A stretch of DNA of 64,000 bases, taken from contig CAZWVL010000001.1 in the NCBI GenBank assembly GCA_964637115.1, forward strand, positions 127,340-191,339, written 5' to 3'. Every line of letters starts with the position of its first letter. Positions within the stretch are counted from its first letter, which is position 1. The stretch is from an uncultured Methanosarcinales archaeon (GTDB taxonomy: Archaea > Nanobdellota > Nanobdellia > Woesearchaeales > ARS49). The position numbers and the translations under genes were made by a program. The notes beneath the pieces are model-generated. The model saw nothing but the letters and a program-made list of their open reading frames with translations, ran no database searches and was not told the origin of the DNA. Below are positions 418 to 57,500 of this stretch, piece after piece.

Positions 418-426
418 GGTGAAACA

Positions 427-1074: not shown

Positions 1075-1155
1075 TCTGCCTGAACTGAAATATTTGCTAT
1101 TGTTAAGTAGTTAAAATAGCAAGTTATTTAAGGTTGTTAGTACTATTTTTCGTCG

Positions 1156-27081: not shown

Positions 27082-27501
27082 TTATTCTGGTGATACCATA
27101 ATAATGTTTTTTTCCTTAAGCAATCTGCGCAGATTGTCAATGTGCCCTTTGCATAAGTTGAATTCATTGATTGCTTCGCTTAGTTTGCCGGCTCTTGCGT
27201 GTTCAAGACCTTTGTGTATTCGCTGAACAGAAATGCTAAGCAGATAACGCGCAGCAGCAAAATAATCCTGCGGAAGACTTGGAGAAAAATGTTTATTTAT
27301 CTGCTCGGTTAATTCCCTTGTTGGACTTCTTTCGCATGCATGCATTTGAGCAGCCAGCTGGTTAGACCGGTTATAGAAGGGTACTACCTTTTCGTTGACA
27401 AGCTGAGCTGCAGCATCGTTAGACCTCAGTTTACTAACCAATGCGTCCAGGATGCTGGAAAAATCTTCCAATGCGTCTGTCATAATAGAATAAAAATTCA
27501 T
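27082..27501 (-). CDS. Hypothetical helical protein directly downstream of the giant gene
   Basis: 139-aa ORF starting 5 nt after the giant gene's stop, same strand. Confidence 0.6.
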   Translation of the reverse strand: MNFYSIMTDALEDFSSILDALVSKLRSNDAAAQLVNEKVVPFYNRSNQLAAQMHACERSPTRELTEQINKHFSPSLPQDYFAAARYLLSISVQRIHKGLEHARAGKLSEAINEFNLCKGHIDNLRRLLKEKNIIMVSPE

Positions 27502-36500: not shown

Positions 36501-39500
36501 AAGAGCATCGAGCAGCATCTGTTCGTGGTTGCCACGGACGACAATGACTTTTCCACCGGATGCCTCTGCCTGAGCCTGCAACTTGCGTATGAATTCTGCT
36601 GCACCATGCGCATCTTCACCTGCATCAACAATATCGCCATCAAAGACAAAGACTGCCTTTCCATTCCTGTTCTCAGGGCCAGTGTTCCAATTATCATTGG
36701 CATCAATAAAGCCAGCACGATGCATAGCTTTACGCGCAACCTGATAATTGCCCTGCACGTCACCCATCGCACCAAGACGAGCAGCACCCTCAACGACTTT
36801 CACGTGCGGCAGGTCAACTTTGAGGTATGGTTCGCCTTCTTTCAACATTTCAATTTCAGGCAGAAGAGGTTTTTTTGCCACTGGCGGTTCCGTGACTACT
36901 TTCGGTATGGCAGTTATCTTCGGGCCCTTGCCTATTTTAACAAGCTCAAATGTTTTCAATTGACTCATGTAACGCGTTGCTTCAGAGCCGTCAGGCCTAC
37001 GAATTATCAGGTCACCATCTTTATCAAGACCAAGTACCACAACATCTTCAGTAACTCCGTTCTTTTGAGTAAGTATGACTCTGCTGCCCTCAGCAAGCTC
37101 GTCTAGACGCATAACCTCGGCCCGCTTGCCCATTGCGCTGACAATGATCCTGATAGGGATATCAATTCCCAAGAAAAATATTGGAGCAATCCTTGTTGTT
37201 TCCAGCATAGCTTCACCCAATGCGCTGCCCAATGTGCGCCGTCCGGTAATCGGAACCGGCAAAGGAGTAACAGGCGCGCCAAGAATTCTTGCCTCGTACG
37301 ATTGGCGGGCCCCACGCGCATCTGCAAGCAATTTATTGTACTCCGCATCCACAAGCTTCTCAAGCTGCTTCTTCGTAGTGAGCCAGCGCTTGATTGACCG
37401 CATCTCTTCGAGAATTTTCTCACGTAGCACATTCTGAATGTCCTTGCCATATGCTGCTCGCTGAACCGGTTCCAAGTGTTCAAAGGCGTAGTCAAGAGAG
37501 GCGAGTGTGCGCTCATCAAGAGGTCCTTCTTTCAGCATTTTAATTGCAATTAGCGTCAGATCGGCTGGTGTTCCTACATAGTACAGCTTCTGTTGAATGA
37601 TTGCATTGTGAACTGCGAGCTTGTTGATCAATGTTTCAACTAGCCCAACGTCATTTCCATTTCTATATAGCGGCTTATCCGCAGTGCTGCTTTCATCAAA
37701 CTTAACATCCTCAATCGCGCCCTCAAGCACAGTTTCTGCAACGCCGCTTTCCTTTGAAAAGACAACGCGCGGATCTCTGAAATTGGAAGAATAGAAGAAT
37801 GCACCAATGTCGAGCTCCTGGCCCTTGCCGGCAAGTTCTGGAATTAACCTGGAGCCAACTTTCAACACTGCCTCGAGATAAAGCGGTATTGACCTGCAAC
37901 AAGTATCCACAAACACAATCTTGCCGGATTTCGCTGCACCAGATGTTTGCAGATAATTATACAGATATTTATGCACTTCTGCAAACTTTGCCCTAAACTC
38001 AGGATTTGTGCGCAGCAAGTCTTCTATTTCCCTGAAGAATGCCTCCTTGAACCTGTCATAATTGCCATATCCGACCTCGTCCGCAAGCCTATCTAGGATT
38101 TTTTCAATGAGCGTCCAATGCGGGCCATCGAATCCGCCAAGAGTGTCTCTGCTCACGTATGCTGCATGGACATCCGTGTCTGGATTCATTGATTTGTCCG
38201 TAACAAGCATAATGTGGCCGTCGCGTCCAAGGTAGACTTTGCTGTAGCCTGGATACTTTTCATTCAGCTCATCAATTGCCTGCGGAATTCTTCGTGCCCT
38301 TCGATTGGCCTTGAAAAGCATATCATCAAACATCTTTCTTGTAAGTCCCTCAGCAGGCAGCTGGTCACCAGGCTGTTTTGCAGACATAAGCGCCTCTGCC
38401 TTCCTGCGCGCGAGCTCGTACATTTCATCCTGCGTGAACATGCGGCCAAAGGTCTCAACATCAGCAATCTCTGCCAACATATCATCAAGAGTCCTCTGTG
38501 GATCACCTGACAAGTCCTTTCTTTGCAAATGCTTGGCAATCCTGCTTTCAAGCTCTTCTGTCGTGAACACTTTTTCAGGCGCTTCCTCAACCTCTGGTAG
38601 AAGAGGCTTCTTTGCAACTTCAGGCTCGGCAGTTACCATTTCGCCCAGTGCTTTTTGCAGCATTTCGTCTTCGTGCCTTTCAGTTTCGTCAGCAAGAGCA
38701 GGAGCTTCAGTTCTTGATTCCTCAAGCTGTTCGCGAACCACTTCGCCTTTCTTCCTGATCACAGTCTTCTCATATCTTTCAGGAGAACTTACGGTAGTTT
38801 GCTCCAACTCCTTCGTCGCAGCACCCTCAAGACCAATTTCACCTATGGCTACAGGTCCTGCCCCTGTTGATTTCAGCAAATCTACGCTATCAAACTCAGC
38901 ACTGCCTACCTGCACATTGGAATGACCGCGCGTAAACTCGAAAATATCAATCACGCGACGCGCTTCTGTTTCCAGTTCAGCAGGAGTCTTACCTTCCTTA
39001 TATCCCGACTCCATGGCACCAATAATCTCTGAAACTGCCAAAGGATTATTTGTTCCGTGCCTCTGCTGGAATTTGGCCCAGAGATCCATGAAGTTATTCT
39101 TTGAAAGCACCTTTGAATCATACTCTGCAACAGAAAGATGAGGCTTGTAAGTTTCGGGTGTGGAAAAGTCAAATATTTTCTTGACTGCTTCTCTATTTTT
39201 CTCAATATCAACACCCTTGTCTTTCAAAAGCTGCTCAACTGACTCAAAGATGGCAGTGTTTATCTGGCGTGTGATTTCAGGAGAAGCTTTTGCAACTACT
39301 GAAGTTCCCAATATGTCAAGACCGCTAAAGGTCACAACTCCGGCCTTAATCTTTTCCACGCGCTCACGCACGAGGCCTAGAAGAGCATCAATGTCCTGCG
39401 GGGAAAGCCGCACTGAAGGTCCAAAGTCCTTAGCGAGACGTTCGTTCAGCTCATTTATTTTGCCAACAAAAAATTCAGTCATATGAAGCCCTTCAGGTGC

Positions 39501-42500
39501 GTTAATATCAAATGTGTCGCTCACATATGATTCAAGATCACTCAAGATATCTTGTGAAATAACAATTCTTGAAGGCTTGACGCCGAAATACAGATTGCGA
39601 GTCATTGGTGTCCTGAGAATCTGCTCTACTATGGAATAAATTTCAGGCCTAGACCTGAGGAACTCGCGCGCTTCAGCAGACATAGTCTTCAGCAGCTCTT
39701 CCTTAAGCGGCTTCAGAATTGCCCCTGCAGCTTTCGGATCGTCCAATTTGCTGAGCGCCTCTATTACACGTGCTCTGGCAACATCCGCACCAACTTGAGG
39801 AGTATCGGTTCCAGAAATAGTGAGTTCTTTCAAATGCCCTTCAAGCTGCGCCCTGACAATGTTGATATCGACAGGCAGTCCTTTCTCCAATGCGATGCCG
39901 AGCGTCTCAAGCTCATCAGCAACTTCATTAAGTCTTGAAAAGAATGTACTGTAAGCCTGTGTGAGAGTCCTTGCGGTTTCCAAGTCGCCTTCTGCAACTG
40001 ATTTCTTGTAAAGACGCTTCAACACTTTGAAGTAGTTTTCATGAGGATCACCGACTTCAGCATACTTCTCAATCTCTTCTCTCATTATGTTTGAGTACTT
40101 CTCTCTCAATGATTTGTCAAGATACGAATAACGTCCCTGCGTGCGCAATACAGTATCTGCAACAAGATCTGCTTCGCCGCGGGTAAAGTAAACTTGCTGA
40201 AGCGCATTTATTGGCAGCGTTCTGGGGTCTGCAATCTCTATTGCATTGGTTGCAGGATCCTCAACAGCAGTGTTCAAAACAATGCTCATTGGTTTATATC
40301 TGCCGTCGTATAAAGCAACCAAATCAATCTTCCACAACACCCTGCCTCCTCGGGCAATCTCACTTGCCATTTGCTCGCGCGCGGCCTGGACAAGAGTAAT
40401 TTTCCTTCCTTCCACAATTTTCTCTCCAGCCAAGACTTCTTCGAATGTCCATTTGATCTTTTTCTTGCCTGTTGAATCAGAGCCAAGGTCTAGCACCTCA
40501 AATATGACATCTTTGCGTCCCTGCAGTCCACGCACGTATCTCTGCAGCATCGTGGCAAAGTTGGCATAAGCTTTTTCAGGAGAGCCTCGCAATCTGATAA
40601 GCGCGGCAAAGTCAATGTCGCTCGGGTACGGGTTAATGGCAGATTGTGCTGCACTACCTGCCAGGCCAACTGCAACCTCTGCATCCAATCCGTCTGTTGG
40701 AAGATCGGCCAGCTGGCGCATCTTGCGCATTTCTTGGAGTTTGACTGGATCTGCGTCAATAATTGCTTCCAAAGCGCCAAAGACTTCCTGTCCTTCAGCC
40801 GAGCGGCGGAAAATACCTGCTGGGCTCACAAGCTCAGTTCCTTCAGGCGGCAGGATATCGCTGCGGATAACAGGAGCTGGCTCAGCAACCTTCACTATTG
40901 TCAAAGTAATGTCATCATCCCTTGGAGCGTCCTGCGCAAAGTCCCTTGTGCCCCTCAAAACAGCATCTCTTATCTGCTCAGCAGTCCAGCCGTTCTGAAC
41001 TCCTGCTCTTATGATGGAAATTGTATCTGACTCAGGGTTGAGAATATGGTTGCCATTTGCATCATACATAACCTGGCCTTCTGCATCGCGTTTGAAGATA
41101 AAGTCATACTGTTCTTCACCTCTATACTGTTCATACAATCCGTCTGTAAGATGTATTAACAAGTCGCCCTTGCCAAGTTCTATTTCAACGGGCTTCTCGA
41201 CTGTAAACGGTTTGGGCAAACCTAATGGCAAGATTCCATCAATGGTTCCTGGGTACTTAGACCTGACAAGTTCCATATCGCCGTTTGCCCGAACAATAAG
41301 AACAACTTCGCCTGCAGTCACGATCTCAGCTTTTCCTGTTTCAGGATTCAGGACAGTCGCGGAGAAAGTCATGAAATCACCAGACTTGTAATATTTCCTT
41401 GTTTCAGACGCAATCAATGCTGTCAGTTTCTCTGGGTGTTCAAGCAGGTCGCGCGCAGAATCAGAAACTGCCTTGTCCGTTGATTTGTAATCTGCCGTTA
41501 TCTTCCTAATAATGTCAGCAGGAATTGATTTCAGCAAGCTTGCTTCAATGCTGTGGCCTTTTCCATCACCGTTAATAATTAACACGCGCGCCTTTCCGTC
41601 ACTGCCCGTGAAAGTGAACGTAAGCCTTGCATCGCCACCAGAAACTTCTTTTTCAGGAGAGTTGATACCAGAAATCTCAGTACTTCCAATTCTTTCTGAA
41701 CGCGCGCCGATGCTTGCCATTTCAGCATTTGCTACAAGCATTGCAACCCGTTCAGCGCGCTGCGCCTTGAACATATTGTCAAGCGCTATCTCGCGCTTTT
41801 TAACATCCTTAATCTGGTCAAGCAAGTTCTTATTTTCAGAACGAATCTGCTCCTTGATGTACTTATCAACAGCAGATAATGAAGATTTGATTGCTGATGG
41901 CAATTGATCGGACTTCCTAATTGCATCAAATGTCTCACTTAATATTGCCCTGCGCGCATCAGCGCTAAGAGCAAGCGCGGACAATGCTTCGTCAAGCACT
42001 GTCGCATCCCACAAGCCCTGCTGGATGTAAGAATTAATGATTTGCTTTACGACGCCCTCCATTGCCGGATCATACAAAACATTCGCTTTTTTCAGAACGT
42101 CCCTGACTGCGTTTTCTGCACGAACCTCCTGAATGAGAATATCGCTAATAGCTGCACGTACATCCTGCTCGCTCGTTGTTCTCTTGTAGAACGGTTCTTC
42201 AGCAATGCCCGGCAGAACAGGTTTTCTGGCCACTGCAGGCTCAACCACTTTTTCAGGAACTGCAGGCTTTGCGGCTTCTTCAGGAGCGTAAAGCTCCTGC
42301 ATTTCCTTCAAATGCTCTATCGCAGTCTTTACGCCATTGAGTTTGGATTGAGCAATCGCCGCATCACCAGCTTTTTCAATTGCGGCCTGCCTGGCTTCCA
42401 AGATTTTTTGTTGCTGAGCGCGCAACGAACTTTCAATTCCGCTGAGCTGCGACTGCAATCCTGCAGCCTCATCAAGCTTTCCTTCGCTCACGCGCTGACT

Positions 42501-45500
42501 GATTAAGCTTCTGAGCTGGCTTGTTGTCTGCACACCAGCAGACTTGAGCAAGTTTGCAATTTCCAGATACTCTGGAGACTGTGAAGCAGCTTCGTAAGCA
42601 GGCAAGGCCAACTGCAATGAATCATCAGCCTGCGCTGCACCCTGCAGTTTGACAAGCTCCTGCTTCAAATCAATATCTCCATTGTCAGCCAATGAGCTCA
42701 AGACATCAAACTTGAGCGACTCATAGTTAACTTCTGATTCGGCAGCCTTTGCACGGACATTTGCGATAAACGCTTCCTTGGCAGCATCCATACCAAGCGT
42801 GCCAAGCTCCTGCGGATTGATTGCCGCAGCTTGAACTACATTAATCATAAACTCAGTGACATCAGCCCTTACACGATCCTGCTGCAATGCCAGATTGGAC
42901 TGTTCAACCTCGATCTGAGCGCCCTCTACCTGCAGAGCGGCCACATCAACCTGAGCAGCATATGATGCGCGTTCTTCAGCAGTTACTGCCTTTGCCAAAT
43001 TCTCCTGTGCTGTGGCAAAATTATCCAGCGCATTTGTGAGCTTGTCACGCGCAGACTCAAGAGCTTCAGTGTTTTTAACAGCACTTTCACGCGCCTGTGC
43101 TGCATCTGCCTTCAAACTGTCAATCTTACGCGTTTCAACTTCGACAATACGCTTGACTGCATTATTAATAGGAGTATCGCCCTTGCTAAACTCATTATAG
43201 CTGTCCTTGCTTCTAACATCCTCAAGAATTTCCTTGAACTCCCTGAAGTTTTTAGCCTCCAAAAGAGATTTTCCTGACTTGAATGGAGCAGCATCACTGA
43301 GTGCAACTGGCTTGGCATCATAAGATCCAAGATCCTTGAAAATGTCTTTTCCAGCCTCGCCAAGCTGCTGGATTTCAGGAGAATTCAACAAGTTATCCTG
43401 CACGTACTTTGCACGGCGTTCAATCTCACTCTTCATTCTATCAACAGTTTTCTGGCCGTATGCCGAATCAAGAGATGGCTCTTTTGCTGACGTGAACTGA
43501 TCATACCTGATGAGCTGGTCCTGCAAGCCCTTGATGTTGCGCATCGCGTCTTCTCTTGATATCTCACCACGCTCTGCCCTTGCAAGCTCGCTCTTGATAG
43601 CGCGGCTGAATCCGCCACGCACAACCTGGTCAAGATCCTGCAAGTCGCTACGCTCAGTGTATTCCTTAATGCCGGCAGCCTCACGCCTCAGAGCGCTTTT
43701 CAGCAAGCTCTTGACGTCGTTAATCGAAGCATCCAAGGACCCGACTTCAATAGAGTCTCCAACATTTCTCTTCCTGCCAAGCGCCTGCTCCACATCAGTG
43801 AGGCTTGTTGATTTGTCAACAATAACCTTGAATCTTGTTTCACCGAATTCAGCGCCAACTTCCCCACGCTCCAATCTCGATTTAAACGCAGCATTTGCAT
43901 CAATGTCCCTGCTTTGAGTAGTCTTCAAATCAAGACCTTCGATTTCATTAGTAATAACTGCGCCGTTCCTGCCCTTCAGACCCTTCTCCAGCACGACCCG
44001 CTTTGGATCAACTTCTGTAGTCTTGATTTCCAGCTTGCCCTCAGCAGTCTTGACAACTTCAGACAACAAGTACTTTCCGCCAACTTCCTTTGGAGTTCTT
44101 ACGAGCAGGAAATCACCTTCTTTTGCAGTTCCTTCTAACACGCGTGATTCAAGCGCTTCACGGCCAATGCGCACTGCATCTGCATAGCCCTTGCCGGCAG
44201 CATATATATAGGAGTCAAGGCCTCCTTTCCTGAAACCATCCTCAATATAACTCTTGACGTTATCAAGAACTTTAATACGCCCTTCAAGGCCCAAATTCTC
44301 TCTTGCGTTCGGACCTTCACCTGCCTTGAGCCTTGCATCAGCACGTTGAGCATCAAACTTGAAGGCGTCAGCAACTTTCTCACCAAACTCTGCCTTAATT
44401 GCATCCCTAAGCATTTCAGGAGAGACCCATCTAAGCGCACCAGATTCAAGCAGAATGGTTTCCAAGCCGGTTGAGCCCCGGAGCGCGCCCTCAACAAGCT
44501 TCTGCGTAGCAGTCAAGGCGGTATACTTGCCAAACTCACGCAAGAAGTCCTTCATATTAGACTTTGCAGACTTGGTAGTTATTTCCAACTCGCCAAGACT
44601 TGCCTTTGCTCCTGCACCCTTAACCAATGTTTCAATAATTATATGCCTGTTGACGTCTCCAAAGCTCATACCCTCTTGAGCAACTGCACGTTCTTGCATC
44701 GGACGAACTTCTTTCACATTTCCTGCAGCATCAACAATAGTCTCGTAGCCTTTCTTCAACGATTCATCCTTGAGAACATCTTTCAACTCGCCAAGCAGTT
44801 CCTTATACTGCTTCAAGTCACCAAATCCTTTCTTCAACGCGTCAACAGTAACCTCTTTACCCAAAATCTTTGAAAGCTCACTTGCGAAATCCTTAAGCGC
44901 GCTGTCCTTGAATTCATTGAACAGATCATTCGGCTCCCTTGCAAGTTCTCTTGCAGCGCTTTCAAGGTCCTTGGCATCTGCTTCAAGGCCGCGCTTTCTT
45001 AGCTCAGCAACCTCCTTGTTCAGTTCTGCTGCCTTATCACCATTAGTCTTGAGCAAGTCCTCAATGACTTTCTTATTGTTGGCTGCAAACTCGTCCCCTA
45101 TCTTGAAACCCTTTGACTCCAGCAGTTTGAGCACATCTCCGGAAGCCTTAATCTTTGCAAGACCATCAACAGATGCAGATAATTTTTCAGTTGCAAGCGT
45201 ACGAATAAGGTCAGTCGCCTCTGCAATCTTTTGAATTTCATCAATCAAACCAGCGCGCTTCTTGAGCGCAGACATCATTCTGTCTGCAATTGAAAGTTCT
45301 TTGAAAGTTGCGCCAAAGAGCGATGCACTTGTGACGCGCTGGATTGTTGCAAAGTCAGTAATCAGCACTTTCGCATCCCTTGCTGCCTCAAGGTCAGATT
45401 CGGTCAAGTCACGGTCCTTCATCTTGCCAGTCTTTGCATCTATTTCAGTCAAGGAGAATTCTCTGACTGAGCCTTCTCCAAGAACACGCTCAACAAAGCC

Positions 45501-48500
45501 CTTGATATCCTTGTACAACGCTGAACGTTTCTGCGCCTCTGTCTGAATATTCAAGTGAGCGCCCTTGCCGAACAAAACGTCCCAAAGGATTCTATCAGGA
45601 GTGAACGTAGCAGTCTTTCCAAAGCCAGTCGGGGCCTGAATAAGAACACCTTCCTTGACAATGGCATTAATAATAGTTTCAACCTGATCAGCTCTGGGCT
45701 TCCTGCCCTCTTCTCCCTTCACGCCTTTTGATTTTGCAACTTCTGAATACACTCTTTCCAAATATGTCTGCAATTTCTTAACCAGCTCTGCTGCATTGGG
45801 CTTGCTGGCAATCTCTGGAATCTTCATCAACTCTTCGCCAAGCTTCTTTGCATCAACCTCGCGAACAGGCTTTCCGTCCGACCCCAGAACTGGTTTTCCA
45901 TCCTTACCAACAACTGGTTTGGACGCCTTGTCAACAGCGCTCTTAATCTGATCAGGTGAAGCGCCCTTGAAAGCTTCGTACATCTTTCTGCCAGTCTCAA
46001 CACCATCACGCATCCTTTCAATATTTGTCTTCTCAACTCCGAGCTTTTCCAACTGGACAGCAGCATCCTTGTTAATTCTATCAACAACAGCATCTCTGTC
46101 AACAACAGCATCTTTGCCTTTGGGCAATTTCAATAATGCATCTATTTCCTTCTCGCCAAAGCCGCGAGTGCGCAATTCATCACGCAAAACATTCGCCTCT
46201 GTCAGCTTTCCTGCAGTCGTGAGCTCATTTATTTGCCTGAGAGTTTCATACACTTTGTCAGCAGCGTGGATTTTTCCAGCTTCCATTTCAACACGCATTT
46301 CAGGAGAAGCACGCAATCCTGCTTCGTACAAGCTAACCTTTGCCGCTTCAACCAATTCCTTTCCTTCAATCTTCGCAGCAGCCTCATTCAACCTATTCTC
46401 AATATCCTTCTGGCTTTCCTTGACTGCAGAATCAACCACTTCTTTGCTGAAGAACTGCTCTCTTGTTCTCAACAAGCGCTCGCGCTCTAAACCAAGATTC
46501 TTCAAAGAATTCTTCAGCAAGTATGCTTCCTCGTAAAGTTTTCTGACTGCCGATGCTTCAGGAGCATTACGTGCTTCGAGCATTTTGGCCTTGGTAGCAA
46601 GCTCGGCAAGCGACTTCACTCCTCCAAGTTCAAGAGCTGACCGCAACTTTCCATCCAAAACATTCTGAAGATTACTGAGCTGCTTAATTTCCCTCGTATA
46701 AGCCCGCCTCTGCGCCTCTGCATCCTTTGCAGAAATCAGGCGTTCCTTGGCCTGCCTGTTAATTTCTGCAAGATCCTTGGCCAGTATTTCACGGTGGCTC
46801 GCCAAATCCTCGCTTTGCGCCTTGAGAGCATCCGAGTTCATGAAAGACCATTCCTCAATCTTTCTAGCTTCCCGCATCGCGTCCTCAACCTTCATTCGCG
46901 CAGCAAGCTCATTTCGCAATGAAGCTGCGGACAATTCATCAAGCTCACCAGAAGCTTCAAGTTCCTTATAGTAACCGTCAAGGCTCGACATCCAGATGAG
47001 AGTGTTAAAGTCGCGCAAACGTTCTGCTCTCAAAGCTTCTTCACGCGCTGAACTCAAGGTTTTTTCCGCAGCAGAAAGCTCTTCCTTGAGCACAACTTCA
47101 GGTTCTTTCAAGAATCTGTCAAGCTTGCTGAGCTTTTCACGAATCTCTGCTTCCAAACGGTCAGCTTCCTCATTCTTGCCTTCTCTTCGTAATGCCTCGG
47201 CATCTTTGGAAAGCCTGTTGATTTCATCAGTGCGCTGTCCAACCTGCTCATCTATGACTTTCTTCATTGATTCGCCGGCCTGTTCTCCAGCCTTCAAGGC
47301 GTCCGCATTCTTCGCCAAGAATTCATTATAATCCCGACTGAGCCGGTCAGCCTCGCGCTGTGCCTCGCGTGCAGCATCAGCTTTACCCTCTGCGCGCAGT
47401 CGGTCAGCTTCCTTTTGAGCATCTTTGACATTCTGGCTCTTCTCCAGCTCAGACCTGCGCAGCTGTTCAGCATTATCAAAGCCTGCCTCTTTTGCAGCAG
47501 CATCGGCTCTCTGTTGTGATTCCCGCGCTGTTTCGTGCGCTTTGTAATTGTCAGAAATACGCTGCACTTCACCAGAAGCTTCGGCAAGATTAATGCCTGC
47601 ACGCTGATAGTTAATTTCAAAGCGCTGCGCGTTAATCTGATTCTTTGCAGTTTCATAGTTTGGCGCGTTGGAGTCAAGCATGTTTTGCTGCCTGTTAAGC
47701 GCGCTTTCCTGCGCGTCAAGAGACTGACGCCTGGCGTTAAAGATTTCAGCTCTTTCTCGGGTAGTGTAATCAGCGTTAGTAAGCTGTGAAGGATCCTTGT
47801 TTAATCTCTTTGCTGCGTCCTCCACAATCTTGCCAATCTTTGCCTCGCCTGACATTCTGCCTAATTCGCTATCCATTCTTGCAAGCTCGCCAGACGCAGC
47901 CCTGAACTGTTCTGGACTGATTTCTCCTGCCTTTACGCGATTGACAAGATCCCTTTGTGCTGATTCGATCTTGCCTCTAAGACCTTCCGCTGATTTTCCG
48001 TCAAACTTGTTTTGCTCGAAATTATTGCGGGCTGATTGGAACTCCTTGCCCATTGCTTCATACTTAGGACCAAGTCTACGTGCCTCGATCTGACGAGCCA
48101 TTTCATCCAACGGCCTGCTCGCCTTGTCAACCCAGCCGTGCGTTGCTTTCAGAGCACCAAATGTCAGAAGGTTCTTGATGAAACTCTGGGCAATATGGCT
48201 CGCGTCCATTTTATCTCTCTGTTCCTGGCTTGCAGTTCCAAGCTCAAACAAGGAGAACGCACCAGACTCAATCATAAGGTTGAGCGCAAATGCCACTTTT
48301 ACACCAAAGTTCTTTCCAAGGCCCTTTGCAAAGGCTTTGCGCAATGAACTTTGAAGAGGACTCATACCGGTTGAGCCAGCCATCATTGCAGCACTCATTA
48401 TAAAGGCACGAGCACCCCAATGACCTTCATCAATCTGATCCTGCAATACAGCTGCAAAACTTCTGCCCTCTGCCAGACTTACTTTTCCTGCCTGCAATAA

Positions 48501-51500
48501 ATTGTTTGTAACGTGGAACACGGCTGCATTAGCAACGAACGTGCCAACTTTAATCGCGCCCTGGCCCCACTTGGCAGCAACCATTGTAACCCTGACAACC
48601 TTTGAAACAGCTCCAGCGACTCCCCCGCTCACAATCATAAGGCCGACGTCAATCATTGTTCCGGTGTTGAGAATACCGTCCCAGAAGTCCTCAGTATACC
48701 TGCCCTGCGAATCAAAGTTTGCCTTGAAGGGGAAATCGGTGGTGAGAAGGTTTTTCATCCTGTAACGATCTACAGCTGAAAGCCCTTTTCCAGCATTCTC
48801 AAGCTTTTGCGCAACAGTATTGCCTTCAGCACTGGCAAACTTGCCTAGCAGCCCGGCATTCTTCAAATGTTTAGCCAACTCAGCTTCAAATTCCTTTGCT
48901 CCATCAGACAAGATACCGTCTATCTTGTAGCGAGCTACTCCAATCGAATTGCCCCTCAGATATTCATCTTTATTGGCCACATTAATATCTGTAAAGGTAT
49001 TTGCATAAGCACCAGCTCTAAGCGCCCAAGCAGTCAGAGCATTAGCATAATCTTGTTCTGTCAGATAATCAGATATTTTCGGAGGCCGCAAATCAGTAGT
49101 AGGTTTGCCATTCTCGTCAAAGAACTGCCTGGTGACGGTCTGTGCAATCGCATTCGCCGCCTGCTGTGCGAGCTTGCCTCCAGTCCTCTTCAATTCATCA
49201 ATCAAATAATTAGCGTGTTCAGATATATCACGCAATGCATACCCGTCAGCAACGTTAGCATCAAGATACGGATGAGCTATCGGATAGAACGTCCTGTACT
49301 CTTCCTGCGCTTTCTGGTAATTCTTCTGTGCCATAGTGAGAGAACCTTGAGTTATCTTGGTGCTCACTGATTTGTGAAGTTTCATCGCATCAAGCAAGTC
49401 ATCTCTGGCAGTTATCAGGCTGACTTCAGCCTCATCCATATACTGCCTGGCAAGAGTTGGATCGGCAATCGCCCTGATTGCACGCGCGTTGTTATATTGA
49501 CGCTGCTGTGCCTGAACAACAGTTGAAGGAACTTTCTTGCCCATAAGATGCGCAACCTGCAAGTCCAGCAGGTTATTCAATTCCTCATTCACTTCCTTTC
49601 GCAGAGCAAGATCCTGCACTTTCAGCGCAGCCTGCAATGATTCAAAGAGTTTTGGATCAAACTTGCGCAATGCAAACATCCTTGCAGCAACATTGTCAAT
49701 AGCACGGAAAGCAGTTGTCTTGCCCTGAGCTGCATCCCTCAGCTCCCTATTGAACAAATTGAGAGTATCCTCGACAAGATTGGCAAGCTGCTGCTCAGCT
49801 TCAAGATTCTTGATAACCTTTATCTTGTCAGCAGTGAGGGAAGTGCCAACTGGCACGTAAGTAACCTTCGGGAACTTGCGGCCAACTTCTGCCAAAGTCT
49901 TTGAAGAAGCCTTCTTGCTGCCGAGGAGAAGACTTCCTTTATACTCTTCATAGAGTCTCTCCACTTCAGCCCTGGTATCGTCAGACAATTCGTATCTGTT
50001 CTTGTACGCCTCATCCCAATTGATATCACCATACCTGATATACTCCCTGGTGAACTTGTCCTTTACTGCTGCCAAAGTTTTTGAAGAAGCCTCCTTGGCG
50101 AGCTTTGCACGATCTCCCTTGACTGCTTCATAGAGCATCATAAATTCAATCGCGACATCATCCGGCAAAGCATGCCTGTTCTTGTACGCCTCATCCCAGT
50201 CGATATCGGAGGCAAAGTGCCAGTCCTTGTCTTTGAGTTTGGCCTTCAAATCTGCAGTCAGCGCATCATCCTTCTTGGCCTGCGCTGCAAATGTTTTTCC
50301 TTTAGTCTGCGCATTTGCGATTTTAGTCAACTTTAATTCGCTTAACTTGCCGACTTCAAGCACGTCGCCTTTCTTCAGTATAACGGGCTCGCCTGAATTG
50401 TCAGTAAGAAGCATATTTCCTTCCTCATCGTAGCGCACTTTCCAGCCATTTTGGTTGATCTGATTCTTGAACTGCTCAGACAGGAAATCATAAGTTTTGG
50501 CTTTCATTGCCTTCAAGACATCATCTGCGCGCACTCCATCCCACTGAACAACAGTCTTTCCTGTTTGCGGGTCAAAAGCGACAACCCCTGGTATTCCGCC
50601 ATTCTTAACATACTCTTCAAAGGCGGCAACCTGCCTGTTGTACAACTCTCCAACCCGCTCTTCAAAAGTCTTGTACTTGTCAAAGAATTCCATCGGTTGA
50701 GAATTGAGCGCGACCTTAAGCGCGTCTTTCATATTATTCTCAAACGTCATCTTATCGATGTTGGCGTCGTTGACTGACAACATTTTCATGTTGTTCATTG
50801 CGCCAGCAATGCCGTTAATCCTCTCAGTCGCGCCTTCACCCACAATAATTTCGTTAAGCACCTTTCTCATGTGGTCCTTATACTGCTGGGTGAATTCATC
50901 ATTGGGAGTTATTCTCGCACCATCAAATTTAACTCCAAGAAGACGTGCAGCTTCATCAACAGCATTCTGCAGCATCTGAAGCTTGCCGGCGTGATTTGCG
51001 TCAGGCACTTTATCAGCATCAATAATTCCCTGATTTATAGTAAGATCAGCCAGCTTCTTCCTGTAATCAAGATTGAGATTGCTTGGATCAAGTGCATCCT
51101 TGATTTTCTTACTTAAATCATCAAGGTCCTTCTGCAAATTATTGTACTTTGAATCATTCTTGATGTCTTCCTTGATCTGCTCATCAGTCTTTCCAGCAGT
51201 CTTGCCCTCATCAATCAACTGTTTGAGACGCTCATCACGCTTCTTTGCAGTCTCAGCATATTCATCCTGCAATCTGTTAAGCTTCGCGCCGCCATCCTTG
51301 AACGCAGAATCGATGCCTGTATTGTCCTTGATGTCCTTGATTTTCTTGTCAATATCCTCAAGTTCTTTTTTGGTATCTTCGAGACGTTTATTTTCATCAG
51401 CAGTCCTTGAATCCTTGTCCTTGCCCTCAAGAGCATTCTTTTCTTTCTCGAGCCTGTTCTTTTCAAGTTCAAGCTCCTGCAGCTTCTTCAAATCAGCAAT

Positions 51501-54500
51501 CGCTTTCTTGACATAATCTTCGCCAGCCTTCTCCATCTTGCTCTTGTAGCACGGTAAAAGCTCAGGCGGAATCTTGCTGACGTCAATCACATTCTTTTTG
51601 ATATACCTGCCAGTCTTGGGGTCGTACTGCTCAAGATAACCGCCTGCAATTGGCTTGTCGCTTGTCTCTCCCTTATCATTTGCCCAACGGCTCATCGGCT
51701 TCATTCCTTCAGGAGTATTGATGAACTCCTTGCCGCCCTTCTCAAAGATAGGGGTGCCATCCGGTGTCATTCCTTTGTAAGTAGCGGACTTATCCGCAGA
51801 AGTTATCTTGCCGGTATCAGCGTTCATTTCGAGACCGGCTTTTCCATACTCGGCCTGCAATTTCTTGACTATGTCCTTGGTATTGCACAAGTTCTTTGCT
51901 TGCCACTCAGGGATTTTCTTGAGAAGTTCTGCGTCTTTTGTAATCGCTTCTTCCCTAATCTTAATTTCGTCCTCCAGTCTTCTAACATCACCGGCCCTGT
52001 TCGGAGCATCTTTGGGCAGGTTTTTAAGCTGATCTTTATAATTTGGAAGAGTCTGGACTAGATTGTCATAGTGCTTTTGTGTTCCAGCCAAATCCAAATT
52101 CTCTGTGTGCGCCTTGTAAGTATCAATCAAGTCAGCAGACTGCTTGTTAAACGCTTCAAGCTGATCGACATCTGCGCTGCTCAATGAAGTGTGGAACTCT
52201 TTTGTAATCGCGTTTTGGAAGTCAATTCCGCCATCAGCCCTTGTCTGGCCTTCAAGCGGAACTCCATCAAGCGTGCGAGGGCCACCTTCCATCGACATCC
52301 TGCGCCTGCCAAGAAGCTCATTGCGCTGATCGTCAACCTTCTTGAACTCTTCACCAGTCTTTTTGATTTCCTTATTGCAGTTCTTGAAGTCGTCCATCAG
52401 CTTGTTGGCAGCGTTCTGGTCAAATTTATTCGGCTGGAATGGACTGTCTTCAACCGACTCGCTCAATGCTTTGTCCTTGTCAATAGGCTTGAACGGCTGT
52501 GCGCCATACTGCCTGATAACATCATCACACGGATTCTTCTGCTTGGGAGCAGCTTCCTGCGCCACAGTGGACCTTTTGAAACAATTATGCTTCAAAGCAT
52601 TATCATAATTATCCTTATCAGCACCAGTAAGTTTGGACGTATCAATTTCTTTGCCTGTTGCCCGGTCAACAATCTTGTAGTCCTTGCCAATCTTTCTCAT
52701 ATCATACTTGGAACCTGCACACGGGTTAACAGCAGGGTTGGTAACATTCGGAACAGTTGGAGCAGGAACTGTAGGCTTTCCAGCACTTGGAGTGGTTGAA
52801 CCAGACTGTCCGCCAGGAAGCTTTGGAGGCTTTCCAAAGTCAGGCGCAGGAGGCCAATCAACGTGCGATGGCTCTGGTTTTTTCTCTGGCTCGTAATACG
52901 GCTTATCGTTGTAGAAGCACGGGTCACAAGGATCTTGTGGAGTGCCAGGACTGGCAGGAGCTGCTGGCTTTGCAGGAGCAACTTGCGTCTGGCCAACTGC
53001 TAAGCCAGTTATGTCAAGGATCGCACCAGTTGTTGGACCTGTTCCGGACTGTCCAGTTGCCACACCTTGTGTTCCTGCCTGCTGAGGAATGCCGCCCGGA
53101 CCAGTTCCGGTTGGAACTTTCATTCCTTCAGTAGTATGTCCGGGAGTTGCAACATCTGCCAGTCCCGTCGGCTTTTTTGGCTTCTCTGGAGTTGGCGTTG
53201 GCTTTTTCTTGCCCTGCTTGACGTGACCAACATCCTTGCGTTTTGGACAGCACTTCTCATCATTGAATCCGGCTCTAATAAGGTGTACGACATTGTCCTT
53301 GTACTCAATATACTTGTAGTGAGCGTTTTCAAGCCAGACCAGTGAAATCATTGCGGAATCATACGCCTTCAGAATATCCATCGGAGTCTTTGCAGCATTT
53401 GCCTGCTTTACCGCGTCATCAGCCTGAGCGCCGGCCATATTCAAAAGAGCATTAACCTCGTCCATCGGAGGAGAGCCAAGACAGACTTTTTCTGGCACAA
53501 ATCCCATGCTTGCAAGCTTTCTTGCCTTATTTGCAAAATTCTGAGCAGATTTCTTCGGGTCAAACTTATCTAGACGGTTAGGATCATTCTTTTCTTTGTC
53601 CTGCTCTTCCTTCTGTTTCTTTTCCGCATCCTTCAGATTTTTCTCTGCATCGTTCTTTGCTTTCTGTGCTGCATCAGCATCTGCCTTGGCTTTTTCGTAC
53701 TTATTCAATAATCCAGGGTCTTTCTCCTGCAATGCTGATTTTGCCTCATCAACTTTGTTCTTAAATTCTCCAGCCCTCGGAGTGTCTTTCCACTTGTTAT
53801 AATTGTCAATGGCATCATTATACGTCTTTACAAGAGGCTCGCTGGCAATCGCATTGACCGCACTGTTTGCAGTATTGGAGTTGCCGGTCGTGCCAGACAA
53901 TGCTTGTTGCGCTGCACCAACCTGTGCGTCAAATGCTGTAGGACCTGCACCATAGTCTCCAACACCCTGTGCACCGAGATATTCTGCTGCAGAACCTGCC
54001 TGCTCAAGACCATAACCTGTCTTCTCGAATTCCTGTATGGCATCCCTCGCTGCCTTAGCAGGATCAAAGCCCTCTGGGAATTTTCCGGTCTTTGGATCCT
54101 TGAACTGGTCCTCCCAATTCTTCTTGGCTTTGTCAGCATTTGATTTTTCTTCAGCACGCTGTTCATCCGACTTGAACATCTTGTCAACCGCCATCTTCAA
54201 ATCGCCATCAAGGAACGGAGCAATGCCATCCAGGATTTTCTCAGCAGACTTCATCGCAGCCGTAGCGTGCGCCATAGCCTCGTCAGCCTTGCCCTTGTCA
54301 ATGCAACTATCTTCCTCAGCTTTTGCCCAGCCAACGTTGTCCTCAAAATGCCTCCAGAAGTTTTTCGTGGCCTCCCAATTACTGCCCTTTCTGTTTGCGT
54401 TAGAGTAAATCTCATTAAGAACTTCAGCAGGGCCAACAGGATGGTCGAATTTCTCGTAATCTGCTTCTTGTGCCGGAAGATTGCCCTTCGCAGGCTTAAC

Positions 54501-57500
54501 ATCAATCTTTCCAGAATCCATTCCTGGATTGACTGCCTCGCCACCTCTTGACATATCTAAACCAGAATTCTTCCATTGACTTGGAGGTGCAGGAAGCTTT
54601 GGCGCCACAGGAGCAGCTGGAGCTGCCTGCAAACCAGTAATCACGTTAGAGAATTCAGCAGCAATTGCGCCAGTAACAGAATTCGGCGCAGTTTCTGCAA
54701 CGTGCCCGCCAGTTATTCTTGAGACAAACGCTTCTGGAGAAACCATGGCTTGACCGTGCTCATCAGCTTCGCTGTACAAGCGTCTTACTTCCTTAGCATA
54801 TTTCACGCCAACGGCCGAATCTCTATCATCAATTCGAACCTTTTCAGTAATTTCAGGCCTGTCAGCAAGCTGATCAAGCGTTTGCGGCTCTGCACCACAA
54901 CCGCTCAAACAGCCAAGATCAGCAGAATCGCATTGTGAAAGACAATCCAATGATTGAGAATCATCCTTACAGGCATCCATTGCAGATGTCTTAAAGTCAG
55001 GAAGCAACTTGACAGACCTTTCGGCCGTTCTATAAGTGTCTGCAATCTCTGCTGATGCCTGACGCGCCTTGTCTATTCCCTCTGAAACACAAGGCGAAGG
55101 AGCACCTGCCGGCACGCAAAGAACATCAGAAGATTCTTCTTCAGCATCCTCAGCAGATTCGCGTCCTGCATTGAAACCAGCAGAAGCAGCATCGGTAAGC
55201 AAGTGAGGCTGCGATAATGCTGACTGCGCAGCTGCAAGAGCGCGAGAATCCAGCAGTTTTTTCATAACTACATCCATATTCAATGCAGCACCGCCCGTCA
55301 CACCTGTCTTCAATGGTACATTGGCGCACTCGAAAACTCTAGGCTCTGCATCCTTCAATCCAAACGCATCACGTTCGCTTGTCTCGTCACAAGCCCCGCC
55401 TTCGCACTCAGGACCATTCGCGTCAGCAGCACGACGCTCTCTAGGCTCGACGCAAGTCTTCGGATCACGGTTGTACGCAACATTCACATCAGGCCTGATA
55501 CTTGCAACGTCAACTTCAGGCAACACCTGCTGCTTTTTGACAGGAGTATCAGCGCCATACTTTTCACCCTCAACCTCGACATCTGTCTTATCAACAGCAC
55601 TTTGAGCATCACCAACATTTAGGTAATCAGTATCCTCAACCTTCTTTGACTTTCCATCCCACTTGAAAAGAGCAATGGTGTTAGAATCAATCTTGGCATT
55701 CTGAGGAATACTTCCGTCAAAAATTTCAATCATTAACGGAATACCCGCATCTCTTACAAGCGTAGCGTTCGGCTTATCGTCATACACTTGCTCATACGCT
55801 GAAGCATTAATTGCAATCACGTAATGCTCATTTGGAGCAACAATACTATTGTTCGGGAAGCTCGCAATCCAATAACCCTCAGCAAGCGCACTTGGAGATA
55901 TTGTTTGAGAAGTGTTTACAGTAATCAAGTAATAATAGAAGTTCTCAGGCTCTGAACCCTCGATTTCCTGCACGCTGACAGGCTTGTTAGTTATATAATA
56001 TGTGCTTAGATTGAGAGGTTTGTCTTCAGGATTATACAATTCAATGAATGCAGATGTCCTTAATTCATCCAAATGCTTTCCAATATCCTGATCAGATTGT
56101 GCAATCACGCCCGCTGTACCCAGGCCAACCTGAGGCTGAGGAACAATACCCAAAAGTTTCTGCGCAATAGCCTGACCAATACCAAGACCAGCACTTGCCC
56201 CGCCACCAAGTCCAGACTGAGTGCCAATGACATCTCCTGCATCAGGCAGGAGCACACTCTTATCTGCAACATCCTCAAACGATTTGTACTGAGGCTTTGC
56301 AACAGGCAGCAACCAAGTCGGATAGTTCGAGCCAGCAAGCGCAACAACAGAACCCTCATACCTGTCAACAGACTGGCCCTCAACAACAGCAGGAGCGTAG
56401 CTCAAGCTGACGATAAGGAACATCATGAACAGACCAATAATTCTCTTTCCTTTATCTTCCCTTGAATATAATGTCCTGAATATAACTAGTGCGATAATAG
56501 CAATAAGAGCTGCAAGCAAAAATCCAAGTATTCCAAAGCGCAACTTTTGCTTGGATGCCTCAAGAGGCATTTCAAGAGCAGGACTTGCAAACAACGGCGG
56601 TGAAACTTGGCTTATGATAAAGCCCATATGAGGCTCCTCAGGAGGTGGAGTCGGCTGTGTTGGCTGCTGCAACGGCTCGTTTGGCTCAAATCCTCCATCT
56701 GAAGGAACTTGAACCGGCACAAATCCTTCAGGACAAGTTGGAACACCAGGAGCTCCTCCTGGCATAGCTTGTCCAGCACAAGCTGGATGGTCTGCTCTCT
56801 CAGGAGAACCACCCTCTTTCTTGCACTTTCCTGGCTCTTTCTTATCCTTGCCTCTCTGCGCCTGCTCCTGTAACTTGTCAAGAGCTTGCCAGCCAGTAAT
56901 GCGTCCGGTTGCCTTGCCCTTGCCTTTACCCTGCGGCGATTCAGGCTTCATGCCATCGCATTCTTCGTCCTGCATCGGCTCACCAATGCATTCTTCCTGA
57001 ATTACTGCATCAATGTCAACTTCTGCTTCAAGGACTCCTTCTTTTCCACCCTCAGTTTCAACCTGGCCTTTCATTCCTGCTGCACGTTCGCGAGCTTTTT
57101 TCTCGCACTCAGGCATTTCATCAGCATCCTGAATCTGCCTGCCAGTAATTTTTTCAAACGCTGCCAGAACATTTTTCTTATCTTGTTCGGCCTTGTCTTC
57201 TTTTTCCTTCGTCTTCACGCAACAACATTGCTTCTTTGGAGGATCTCCAGGCTGCTCTGGCTGTTGAGGCGGCAAACCATCCGTGTAAAGAGGCGGCTTG
57301 AGCTCCAGTCCTTTGTGCTCGTTCGGCAACTTTGGCTGGCCACCGTGACCTGACTCTGGACAGTCCGAGCATTCTTCCTTGCACTTCTCATTTTCAACAC
57401 ACTCAGTCCTGAACAATGAAGAGCCAGCGATTTTCTTGCAAGCATCCTTGCACTGCTGAGTCGGACCCTTAGCATCACACTTGAAATGCATTTTCTTCTC

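What the first reader, a model, noticed from the sequence alone, without database searches (positions are those of the whole stretch)
43750..48670. SecA-like ATPase placed just after a hydrophobic Gly/Ala-rich segment and before all cargo domains
Seen: Walker A QAPTGFGKT, DEIQ, TAT and QALGRKRNVGD motifs in SecA/SF2 order, with a roughly 160-aa hydrophobic Gly/Ala-rich stretch upstream. Established: SecA threads polypeptides through a channel, and archaea lack canonical SecA. Inference: a built-in motor and pore could translocate the protein's own C-terminal cargo across a membrane.
Basis: partly seen in the sequence, partly recalled or inferred. Interest (0 to 1): 0.8.

Follow-up and report, generated by a model that had tools for sequence, protein, structure and literature searches.

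The report
SecA-like ATPase module in archaeal giant protein
A tiny symbiotic archaeon (Woesearchaeota) encodes a protein of about 13,000 residues that carries a real, very divergent motor ATPase with some traits of the bacterial export motor SecA. Similar motors are already described in bacterial giant proteins. The half of the protein that holds this one completely avoids sugar-attachment sites, which suggests that half is exported.

Summary
The motifs are real, sit at the stated coordinates and are conserved in the only three relatives found among 1.84 billion protein representatives. They define a module of about 950 residues belonging to the SF2 ATPase superfamily. Its second RecA-type domain is confirmed by fold search.

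A specific link to SecA is suggested but not shown.
- For: SecA and SecA2 are the top Foldseek hits, there is a GKGxH signature, SecA clusters rank near the top in protein-language-model features, and the inserts sit at SecA positions.
- Against: the Pfam SecA_DEAD model does not match, profile comparisons give SecA no advantage over DEAD-box or DinG, and a geometry-only fold search ties SecA with DEAH and DinG helicases.

The hydrophobic Gly/Ala-rich stretch is a conserved domain. It is far too polar to be an ordinary membrane helix, and it lies about 830 residues upstream of the P-loop. Two related giant proteins carry it without the ATPase, so the pairing is not obligatory.

New here: residues 4282-12163 contain no N-x-S/T sequon (about 28 expected) and almost no cysteine, and the membrane topology places this part outside the cell.

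SecA-like motors in bacterial giant proteins are published, and this scan has noted similar modules in other archaeal and CPR genomes. I rate this a new variant of a known kind.

The parts
27507..63998 (-). Giant ORF of at least 12,163 aa, cut at its 5' end by the contig end. It probably continues on contig C6 of the same genome, which would add 799 aa including a signal peptide.
48129..48662 (-). Moderately hydrophobic Gly/Ala/Ser-rich module, aa 5113-5290, with 3-4 helices. Conserved motifs are FHxxNN, W...AF..S.A.M.G..GM and E.GAFS.
   Evidence: the best 19-residue windows score +5.6 to +6.5, against -4.8 to +0.6 for the true membrane helices. Homologous at 25-30% identity to a segment of 8,477- and 8,713-aa giant ORFs in another genus.
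46005..48128 (-). Linker of about 700 aa, aa 5291-5998. It is rich in Lys, Arg, Glu and Asp and looks like helical coiled coil.
   Evidence: about 40% of residues are charged
43134..46004 (-). Conserved ATPase module, aa 5999-6955. Order of parts: RecA1, helical insert of about 240 aa, RecA2, C-terminal long helices.
   Evidence: 42% identity over 989 aa to P0002. Only 3 hits among 1.84 billion representatives. Alignment A1.
45612..45638 (-). Motif I, Walker A: QAPTGFGKT. A Q-motif-like PRADQ lies about 20 aa upstream.
   Evidence: Pfam DEAD matches only here, at 16.8 bits, below the family cut-off.
45555..45569 (-). GKGAH, which follows the P-loop's GKT after 14 residues. This is a SecA-type signature, but related GKQ loops occur in Mfd and PriA.
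   Evidence: GK[TS]-x(8-16)-GKG-x-H is found in 54 of 86 SecA sequences, 0 of 26 DinG, 0 of 30 DEAD-box, only in SecA among 24 E. coli proteins (mostly SF2) matched by Pfam DEAD, and only at this site in the whole genome.
45231..45242 (-). Motif II: DEIQ. The relatives read DEIH and DEAH.
44514..45230 (-). Insert of about 240 aa between motifs II and III. SecA has its preprotein cross-linking domain, and XPD its Arch domain, at this position. It is mostly helical with two small beta hairpins.
   Evidence: Alone it resembles only tape-measure-like helical proteins in language-model features. hhalign to the C-terminal half of SecA's cross-linking domain gives E of about 0.3.
44505..44513 (-). 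Motif III: TAT
43653..44279 (-). RecA2-type domain, aa 6574-6782, holding motif V (EIEGLDLK, 43923-43955) and motif VI (QALGRKRNVGD, 43755-43787).
   Evidence: The model core has pLDDT 65-88. The top 27 geometry-only hits are all SF2 proteins, Z 7.4-8.7.
43134..43652 (-). Conserved C-terminal helical extension, aa 6783-6955, including the motif DQVVRGGF. It is aligned to SecA's helical scaffold region.
   Evidence: SecA structure 2vda: Z 8.5, 234 residues aligned, model 3-285 to SecA 414-788
27510..51155 (-). Zone free of N-x-S/T sequons, aa 4282-12163. It contains the module. There is also no Cys from aa 4151 to 8699.
   Evidence: 0 observed; block shuffles give a mean of 28.6 and a minimum of 12 in 5000
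27621..27677 (-). C-terminal membrane helix, aa 12108-12126, followed by a basic tail beginning RPRRPKPK.
56385..62927 (-). Three strong membrane-helix hairpins, aa 358-402, 1526-1569 and 2488-2538, each with a basic loop. Each is followed by a cluster of sequons.
   Evidence: The lamin tail domain (Pfam LTD) lies at aa 488-593.

Best explanation
The region encodes a real and probably active SF2-superfamily ATPase module of about 950 residues. Its layout is RecA1, a large helical insert, RecA2, then a long helical tail, and it shows several SecA-like traits.

It is an optional module within the C-terminal two-thirds of a giant surface protein that begins with a signal peptide. That part has no glycosylation sequons and almost no cysteine. 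The producing cell most likely exports it through the ordinary co-translational Sec route, so the ATPase is not the pump for that step.

I infer that the module works only where ATP is available, in a host cell or at a cytoplasmic bridge between the cells. There it would act as an ATP-driven threading motor on a linear polymer. I think polypeptide is somewhat more likely than nucleic acid as the substrate, and that the motor helps deliver or handle the unglycosylated enzyme cargo.

Shown: the motifs and their conservation, the RecA2 fold, the lack of sequons and cysteine, and the conservation of the hydrophobic module. Inferred: which side of the membrane the module sits on, its substrate and its role.
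For: - **Motifs and rarity.** Motifs I, II, III, V and VI are conserved across all four family members.
- **Fold.** The RecA2 domain is confirmed: the top 27 geometry-only hits are all SF2 proteins, Z 7.4-8.7.
- **SecA-like traits.**
  - SecA or SecA2 make up 13 of the 21 Foldseek rows listed through rank 24, E 2.9e-4 to 2e-2.
  - SecA gives the longest alignments, 222-234 residues covering its second nucleotide-binding domain plus scaffold, Z up to 8.5.
  - The GKGxH signature is present.
  - A SecA_DEAD cluster scores 0.89 and shares the most language-model features, 175.
  - Inserts lie between motifs II and III and between V and VI, as in SecA.
- **No SecA gene.** The genome has no SecA_DEAD match.
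- **Exported, unmodified zone.**
  - No sequon in 7,882 aa, against a shuffle mean of 28.6. Control patterns and the genome background are normal.
  - Two AglB/STT3 oligosaccharyltransferase genes are present.
  - The relatives also have no sequons, against 8.7 expected.
  - The zone holds 10 Cys where the genome average of 1.34% would give about 100.
- **Topology.** The hairpin loops are basic, and the C-terminal membrane helix is followed by a basic tail. A probable N-terminal signal peptide lies on contig C6.
- **Precedent.** Bacterial giant proteins carry divergent SecA-like domains next to membrane regions.
Against: - The Pfam SecA_DEAD, SecA_PP_bind and P-loop_SecA models do not match.
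- hhalign gives SecA no advantage over DEAD-box, Lhr, Cas3 or DinG. It aligns only the P-loop region significantly.
- The alignment to SecA's cross-linking domain falls within the shuffle null.
- Geometry-only ranking puts DHX36, Prp43, DinG and HrpB at or above SecA.
- Foldseek on a low-confidence model can give spurious families at similar E-values.
- Motif V lacks the Arg of SecA's GRGTD. This comparison is from memory.
- The module was not found in 60 relatives. The 8,477-aa related giant ORF read here has the hydrophobic domain and a sequon-free zone but no P-loop; the second (8,713 aa) shares the hydrophobic domain but was not examined further. A motor is therefore not required by this protein design.
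- An ATPase outside the cell has no ATP. The proposed action in a host is pure inference.
Confidence: 0.4

Rival explanations
1. The module is a nucleic-acid helicase or translocase effector. In this view it is one more enzyme cargo, alongside the PP2C and metallophosphatase domains, and acts on host RNA or DNA after delivery. It would have nothing to do with protein translocation.
For: - It has a Q-motif-like element, DExH/Q and QxxGRxR motifs, and the only Pfam and PHROG signals are DEAD, ResIII and 'DNA helicase'.
- hhalign scores for DEAD-box, Lhr and Cas3 are at least as high as for SecA.
- The top geometry-only fold hits are DEAH/RHA and DinG helicases.
- The best language-model hit is a DEAD/ResIII/Helicase_C_2 cluster at 0.90.
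- Its presence in some giant proteins and absence from others fits a swappable effector.
Against: - No nucleic-acid-binding accessory domain was detected.
- XPD/DinG membership fails, because there are no cysteines for an Fe-S cluster.
- Foldseek prefers SecA.
- The GKGxH signature and the long helical tail resemble SecA.
Confidence: 0.3
2. The protein has a split topology like the published DPANN and bacterial giant proteins. The hydrophobic stretch crosses the producer's membrane, the ATPase and everything after it are cytoplasmic, and the motor powers export or assembly of the N-terminal ectodomain or of other proteins.
For: - The order 'membrane segment, then ATPase' recurs in Omnitrophota giant proteins and in the giant surface (SPEARE) proteins of nanohaloarchaea, where the ATPase is said to face the cytosol.
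- ATPase, PP2C and HEAT domains are typically cytoplasmic.
- ATP is available only inside the cell.
Against: - The hydrophobic helices score +5.6 to +6.5, against -4.8 to +0.6 for the true membrane helices.
- A cytoplasmic location gives no reason for the complete lack of sequons or the lack of cysteine, which begin about 830 residues before the stretch.
- The basic tail after the last membrane helix argues that the preceding part is outside.
- At least one related giant protein carries the hydrophobic domain without any P-loop.
Confidence: 0.2
3. The module is a structural or regulatory pseudo-enzyme. It would bind nucleotide as a switch, or not at all, and would have no motor function.
For: - The divergence is extreme: no family profile matches.
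- Motif II reads DEIQ rather than DExH or DExD, and the second Arg of motif VI is shifted by one position.
Against: All catalytic motifs are intact and conserved among members that share only 28-47% identity.
Confidence: 0.07

Closest known systems
Divergent SecA_DEAD and SecA preprotein-binding domains inside bacterial giant proteins (Omnitrophota, Actinobacteriota). West-Roberts et al. 2023, bioRxiv 10.1101/2023.11.21.568195.
   Same: A giant protein with several membrane segments carries an embedded, fast-evolving SecA-like SF2 ATPase downstream of hydrophobic or membrane segments, alongside Ser/Thr phosphatase domains. The authors propose that the motor serves translocation of the giant protein itself.
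   Different: - Those domains are detected by Pfam SecA models and are said to lack the scaffold and wing. This one fails the Pfam models but has a long helical tail.
- The host here is an archaeon with no SecA at all.
- This module lies in a sequon-free, cysteine-free zone that is predicted to be outside the cell.
Canonical SecA and SecA2 preprotein translocase ATPases (PDB 6gox, 2vda, 2fsg, 4uaq, 1nkt, 1tf2)
   Same: - SF2 motif order, and GKGxH after the P-loop.
- Large insert between motifs II and III, and an insert between V and VI.
- QxxGRxxxxGD in motif VI.
- A RecA2 domain followed by long helices.
- Top Foldseek hits.
   Different: - No profile match and no recognisable preprotein cross-linking domain.
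- The wing domain and two-helix finger were not identified.
- Motif V reads EGLD rather than GRGTD.
- It is embedded in a protein of about 13,000 aa rather than being a soluble partner of SecYEG.
Giant surface (SPEARE-type) proteins of DPANN archaea. Hamm et al. 2019; Reva et al. 2023, PMC10266531.
   Same: A DPANN archaeon encodes a giant ectodomain with a Sec signal peptide, glycosylation or adhesion modules, a coiled coil and an embedded P-loop ATPase, and is thought to act at the host contact.
   Different: - The SPEARE ATPase is of VirB4/TraG (HerA-like) type, follows a single membrane helix and faces the cytosol.
- Here the ATPase is SF2, there are three membrane hairpins plus a C-terminal anchor, and about 5,000 aa of further enzyme and HEAT domains follow.
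XPD/DinG (Rad3-type) SF2 helicases
   Same: - A DExH motif II and a large insert between motifs II and III, at the position of the Arch domain.
- An EG[IL]D-type motif V and a QAxGRxxR-type motif VI.
- The best language-model hit and DinG among the top geometry-only hits.
   Different: - There is no cysteine at all in the module, so no 4Fe-4S domain.
- No match to the Helicase_C_2 or DEAD_2 profiles.
- The strand that precedes motif VI is placed as in SecA and DEAD-box proteins.

Membership tests
SF2 ATPase superfamily | Motifs I (GxGKT), II (DExx), III (S/TAT), V and VI (QxxGRxxR) in order on two RecA-like domains | tested here: met
   All motifs are present and conserved in the four family members.
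SF2 ATPase superfamily | RecA-like fold of the second domain | tested here: met
   The model core has pLDDT 65-88. The top 27 of 48,161 chains are all SF2 proteins, Z 7.4-8.7.
SF2 ATPase superfamily | RecA-like fold of the first domain | tested here: inconclusive
   The model is below pLDDT 50 across this domain. Foldseek on it returns FtsY and SRP54, which is not meaningful.
SecA family | Match to the SecA_DEAD sequence profile (PF07517) | tested here: not met
   No match in the whole genome at E up to 10, while the control genomes do match. It is absent from the hmmscan output at E up to 10.
SecA family | Preprotein cross-linking domain inserted between motifs II and III | tested here: inconclusive
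   An insert of about 240 aa sits at the right place. However, hhalign to SecA residues 352-447 scores 17-19 (E about 0.3), inside the shuffle null. hmmsearch is not consistent across family members. Language-model features of the insert are uninformative.
SecA family | Second nucleotide-binding domain followed by a long helical scaffold | tested here: inconclusive
   Foldseek's top hits are SecA and SecA2 (E 2.9e-4, probability 1.00). SecA gives the longest alignments, Z 8.5. But its Z is tied with DEAH, DinG and RIG-I helicases, and the model's mean pLDDT is 58.9.
SecA family | GKGVH-type signature after the P-loop | tested here: met
   GKGAH here and GKGKH in P0002. The pattern occurs in 54 of 86 SecA, 0 of 56 DinG or DEAD-box, and only in SecA among 24 E. 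coli proteins matched by Pfam DEAD. The motif is short and was chosen after seeing the alignment.
SecA family | Two-helix finger, wing domain and binding to SecY | not testable with these tools
   No confident model covers the relevant parts.
XPD/DinG helicases | Four-cysteine 4Fe-4S domain between motifs Ia and II | tested here: not met
   There is no Cys between aa 4151 and 8699.
DEAD-box helicases | D-E-A-D motif II and a full Pfam DEAD plus Helicase_C match | tested here: not met
   Motif II reads DEIQ, DEIH or DEAH. Pfam DEAD reaches 16.8 bits (cut-off 26) over the P-loop only, and there is no Helicase_C match.
SPEARE-type giant proteins of DPANN | HerA/VirB4-like ATPase directly after a single membrane helix at the C-terminal end | tested here: not met
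   The ATPase here is SF2 by motifs and fold. The architecture is also different.
Giant proteins with an embedded SecA-like domain (West-Roberts et al.) | A giant ORF with several membrane segments and a divergent SecA-like ATPase downstream of hydrophobic segments | tested here: inconclusive
   The architecture matches. Whether the ATPase is truly of SecA type is unresolved, as set out in the SecA rows above.

The most novel reading that the evidence does not exclude
A DPANN archaeon exports a cargo chain of about 7,900 residues that is kept free of glycosylation sites and cysteine. The conserved Gly/Ala-rich module inserts into a host membrane. The SecA-like ATPase is the first globular domain behind that module, so it enters the host cytoplasm first. 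There it uses host ATP as a trans-side ratchet to pull in the phosphatase and HEAT cargo. This would be a self-delivering multi-effector protein with its own motor, in a domain of life that lacks SecA.
Probability: 0.1. Interest if true: 0.9.

Novelty: new variant of a known kind. Interest (0 to 1): 0.6.

Why it matters
How ultra-small symbiotic archaea act on their hosts is largely unknown.

If the reading here holds, it would show three things. First, the design 'giant protein with an embedded SecA-like motor', published only for bacteria, also occurs in archaea, which have no SecA. Second, the motor is an exchangeable module rather than a core part. Third, the motor sits in a part of the protein that is under very strong selection to stay free of N-glycans and cysteine.

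That last signature is simple and can be searched for in other genomes. It could mark polypeptides that must cross a second membrane, and so turn 'effector delivery by DPANN archaea' into a testable hypothesis.

Tried and rejected
- **Sequence searches of the ATPase that gave nothing useful.**
  - PDB by sequence, with the single protein and with the family profile: only a coiled-coil hit and a P-loop hit at E 0.67.
  - NCBIfam: nothing. PHROGs: only weak 'DNA helicase' hits at the P-loop.
  - The search for homologous proteins, twice: no hits, because the candidate lists were crowded out.
- **First AlphaFold model (751 aa).** Mean pLDDT was 48, which is unusable. Foldseek on it returned FtsY and SRP54, which I treat as noise. 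A geometry-only search gave only weak RecA-like matches.
- **hhalign artefact.** The apparent score of 35 for the alignment to SecA's cross-linking domain was a listing artefact. That score belonged to the P-loop hit. The true score is 17-19. I therefore do not use the 0 of 45 shuffles result.
- **Language-model search with the insert alone.** It returned tape-measure-like helical proteins with low recognition.
- **Hydrophobic segment as a single-protein query.** It found nothing in 300 genomes. Homologues appeared only through BLAST against a related giant ORF and then a two-sequence profile.
- **Complex prediction.** Not used, because this report makes no binding claim.

Full report
**Gene and organism.**
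The finding lies inside a single open frame on the minus strand, 27507-63998, of at least 12,163 aa. The contig ends at the window's end.

Contig C6 of the same genome starts with the same 42-nt repeat; its first 54 nt match C1's end. It carries a 799-aa frame that runs off its start. That frame begins with a typical signal peptide, followed by Pro/Thr-rich linkers and Cys-rich modules. The true protein is therefore probably about 13,000 aa and is targeted to the Sec pathway. The join is likely but not proven.

The neighbouring genes are ordinary chromosomal genes: SRP54, LysRS and an archaeal-type Dph6. Earlier notes of this scan call the genome a Woesearchaeote of the DPANN group.

**The observation.**

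A full scan of 1.84 billion protein representatives found only three relatives. They are P0002 (47% identical, from an archaeal assembly), P0003 and P0004. All of them keep the motifs: GFGKT, DEIH or DEAH, TAT, EG[LF]D and QAxGRxR.

Homology to P0002 spans aa 5999-6955 of the giant protein, at 42% identity over 989 aa. This defines a module of about 950 residues: RecA1, an insert of about 240 aa, RecA2, then a conserved helical tail. The module was not found in 60 relatives of the same genus, family and order.

**SF2 membership.**
Pfam sees only the P-loop: DEAD at 16.8 bits and ResIII at 12.3 bits, both below their cut-offs.

A model of RecA2 plus the tail has a core pLDDT of 65-88. Aligned by geometry alone against 48,161 PDB representatives, its top 27 hits are all SF2 proteins. 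They include DHX36 (Z 8.7), Prp43 (8.5), DinG (8.4), HrpB (8.3) and SecA (8.0). Membership of the SF2 superfamily is therefore established.

**Is it SecA-like?**

Evidence for:
- Foldseek (structural alphabet plus sequence) ranks SecA or SecA2 from at least six species first. They are 13 of the 21 rows listed through rank 24, with a best E of 2.9e-4.
- SecA gives the longest structural alignments, 222-234 residues covering its second nucleotide-binding domain plus helical scaffold, Z up to 8.5.
- GKGAH follows the P-loop's GKT after 14 residues. This pattern occurs in 54 of 86 SecA sequences, in none of 56 DinG or DEAD-box sequences, and nowhere else in this genome.
- A SecA_DEAD cluster is a near-top language-model neighbour and shares the most features.
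- Inserts lie between motifs II and III and between V and VI, as in SecA.

Evidence against:
- The SecA_DEAD profile finds nothing in the genome, even at E up to 10.
- hhalign of the family profile against single E. coli SF2 proteins scores DEAD-box, Lhr and Cas3 (40-44) above SecA (35.5), and only at the P-loop.
- I built family alignments from fetched loci. Against these, SecA, DinG and DEAD-box all match only the P-loop, at E of about 1e-3.
- An appealing alignment of the insert's C-terminal part to SecA's cross-linking domain has a true score of only 17-19. That lies inside a column-shuffle null with mean 14.7 and maximum 22.6. hmmsearch does not support it consistently either.
- Foldseek on the poor full-length model returned FtsY and SRP54 at E of about 4e-3. 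E-values of this size on low-confidence models therefore need caution.

XPD/DinG membership fails, because the module contains no cysteine for an Fe-S cluster. My estimate is roughly even odds that the module is closer to SecA than to any helicase family.

**The hydrophobic stretch.**
Residues 5113-5290 contain three or four Gly/Ala/Ser-rich helices. The protein's seven clear membrane helices score -4.8 to +0.6. The stretch is therefore unlikely to stop transfer in the Sec translocon.

It is nevertheless a conserved domain. It aligns at 25-30% identity, with polar motifs such as FHxxNN, to a segment of giant ORFs of 8,477 and 8,713 aa in another genus of the same family. A scan of the 8,477-aa ORF found no SF2-type P-loop or DExH pair, and the ATPase query did not match its genome. 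The 8,713-aa ORF was not examined for an ATPase. The pairing of hydrophobic module and ATPase is therefore not obligatory.

About 700 residues of charged coiled coil separate the stretch from the start of the ATPase module. The gap to the P-loop is about 830 residues.

**An unexpected signature.**
N-x-S/T sequons number 27 in aa 1-4281. They cluster just after each of the three membrane hairpins. From aa 4282 to the end, 7,882 aa, there are none. Shuffling residues within 100-aa blocks gives a mean of 28.6 and a minimum of 12 in 5,000 trials.

Control patterns are at expectation: [ST]-x-N 23 observed against 27.9 expected, N-x-A 27 against 28.1, and D-x-[ST] 44 against 49.8. The genome as a whole is also at expectation, 1,311 observed against 1,228.

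The three relatives likewise have no sequons, against 8.7 expected. The giant ORF of the other genus has none in its last 4,000 aa or so, against about 15 expected. Cysteine is absent from aa 4151 to 8699. The genome encodes two AglB/STT3 oligosaccharyltransferases.

**Topology.**
The loops of all three hairpins are basic, and the last membrane helix is followed by a strongly basic tail. By the positive-inside rule (established knowledge), everything between the hairpins and the C-terminal anchor lies outside the cell.

Selection against sequons makes sense only for a chain that is exposed to AglB. I therefore infer that the C-terminal two-thirds, including the ATPase, is exported and must stay free of glycans and disulfides. 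This is consistent with a later passage through a narrow pore.

**Mechanism.**
The ribosome and SRP/Sec pathway can export the chain co-translationally, so a cis-side pump is not needed. An ATPase outside the cell has no ATP in any case.

The module is optional within this protein design and lies among the enzyme domains. I therefore favour the view that it is part of the exported cargo and works only where ATP is available, in a host cell or at a cytoplasmic bridge. It would act there as a threading motor.

Whether the substrate is polypeptide (the SecA-like reading) or nucleic acid (the helicase reading) remains open. A split topology with a cytoplasmic motor, as proposed for bacterial and SPEARE-type giant proteins, remains a serious rival. 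It does not, however, explain the sequon and cysteine voids.

**Comparison and novelty.**
West-Roberts et al. 2023 already report that most bacterial giant proteins carry divergent SecA_DEAD domains next to membrane regions. They suggest these domains export the giant protein itself.

DPANN giant surface proteins with embedded ATPases are also published, but those ATPases are of VirB4/HerA type.

This scan has already noted SecA-like modules in another archaeal giant protein and in a CPR bacterial one. None is similar in sequence to this module.

I found no paper describing an archaeal SecA-like module or the sequon-free zone. I therefore class this as a new variant of a known kind.

Noticed in passing
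window 27510-51155 (aa 4282-12163): This zone has no N-x-S/T sequons at all, against about 28 expected. It has no cysteine between aa 4151 and 8699. The N-terminal third, in contrast, holds 27 sequons and 136 cysteines.
   Followed up: yes
G000 contig C6, nt 2-2398, minus strand: This is the probable missing N-terminus of the giant protein. It is a 799-aa frame with a signal peptide, Pro/Thr-rich linkers and 34 Cys, and it ends in the same 42-nt repeat as the window's end.
   Followed up: partly
window 56385-62927 (aa 358-402, 1526-1569, 2488-2538): Three internally duplicated units, each a membrane hairpin with a basic loop followed by a cluster of sequons. The first two hairpins are almost identical in sequence. 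The first unit contains a lamin tail domain.
   Followed up: no
L218-L220 (G015:C5:36449-61879) and L224 (G330:C7): Giant ORFs of 8,477 and 8,713 aa in another genus share the hydrophobic module. In the 8,477-aa ORF, the one read through here, the N-terminus is rich in sequons, the C-terminal half has none, and the protein ends in a membrane helix with a basic tail; no P-loop ATPase was found in it.
   Followed up: partly
window aa 8700/8701, 9834/9835, 10631/10632, 11284/11289, 11981/11986: The only cysteines in the C-terminal 8,000 aa occur as five pairs: three adjacent CC doublets and two CxxxxC pairs.
   Followed up: no
window 27082-27501, minus strand: A 139-aa ORF starts 5 nt after the giant gene's stop codon, so it is probably co-transcribed. 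It matches no Pfam or NCBIfam family and looks helical.
   Followed up: no
window 26123-27076, plus strand: An ADP-ribosylglycohydrolase gene sits next to the giant gene's 3' end.
   Followed up: no
L001 (GCA_038884675.1, contig of 4,964 bp): The closest relative of the ATPase is called as a 1,330-aa gene. An overlapping open frame in another reading frame precedes it. This may be a frameshifted fragment of a larger gene.
   Followed up: partly
G001:C57:3696-4727: A genome of the same genus holds a 40%-identical copy of the PP2C region on a 5.5-kb contig, but the ATPase was not found there. The assembly is fragmented, so absence is not shown.
   Followed up: no
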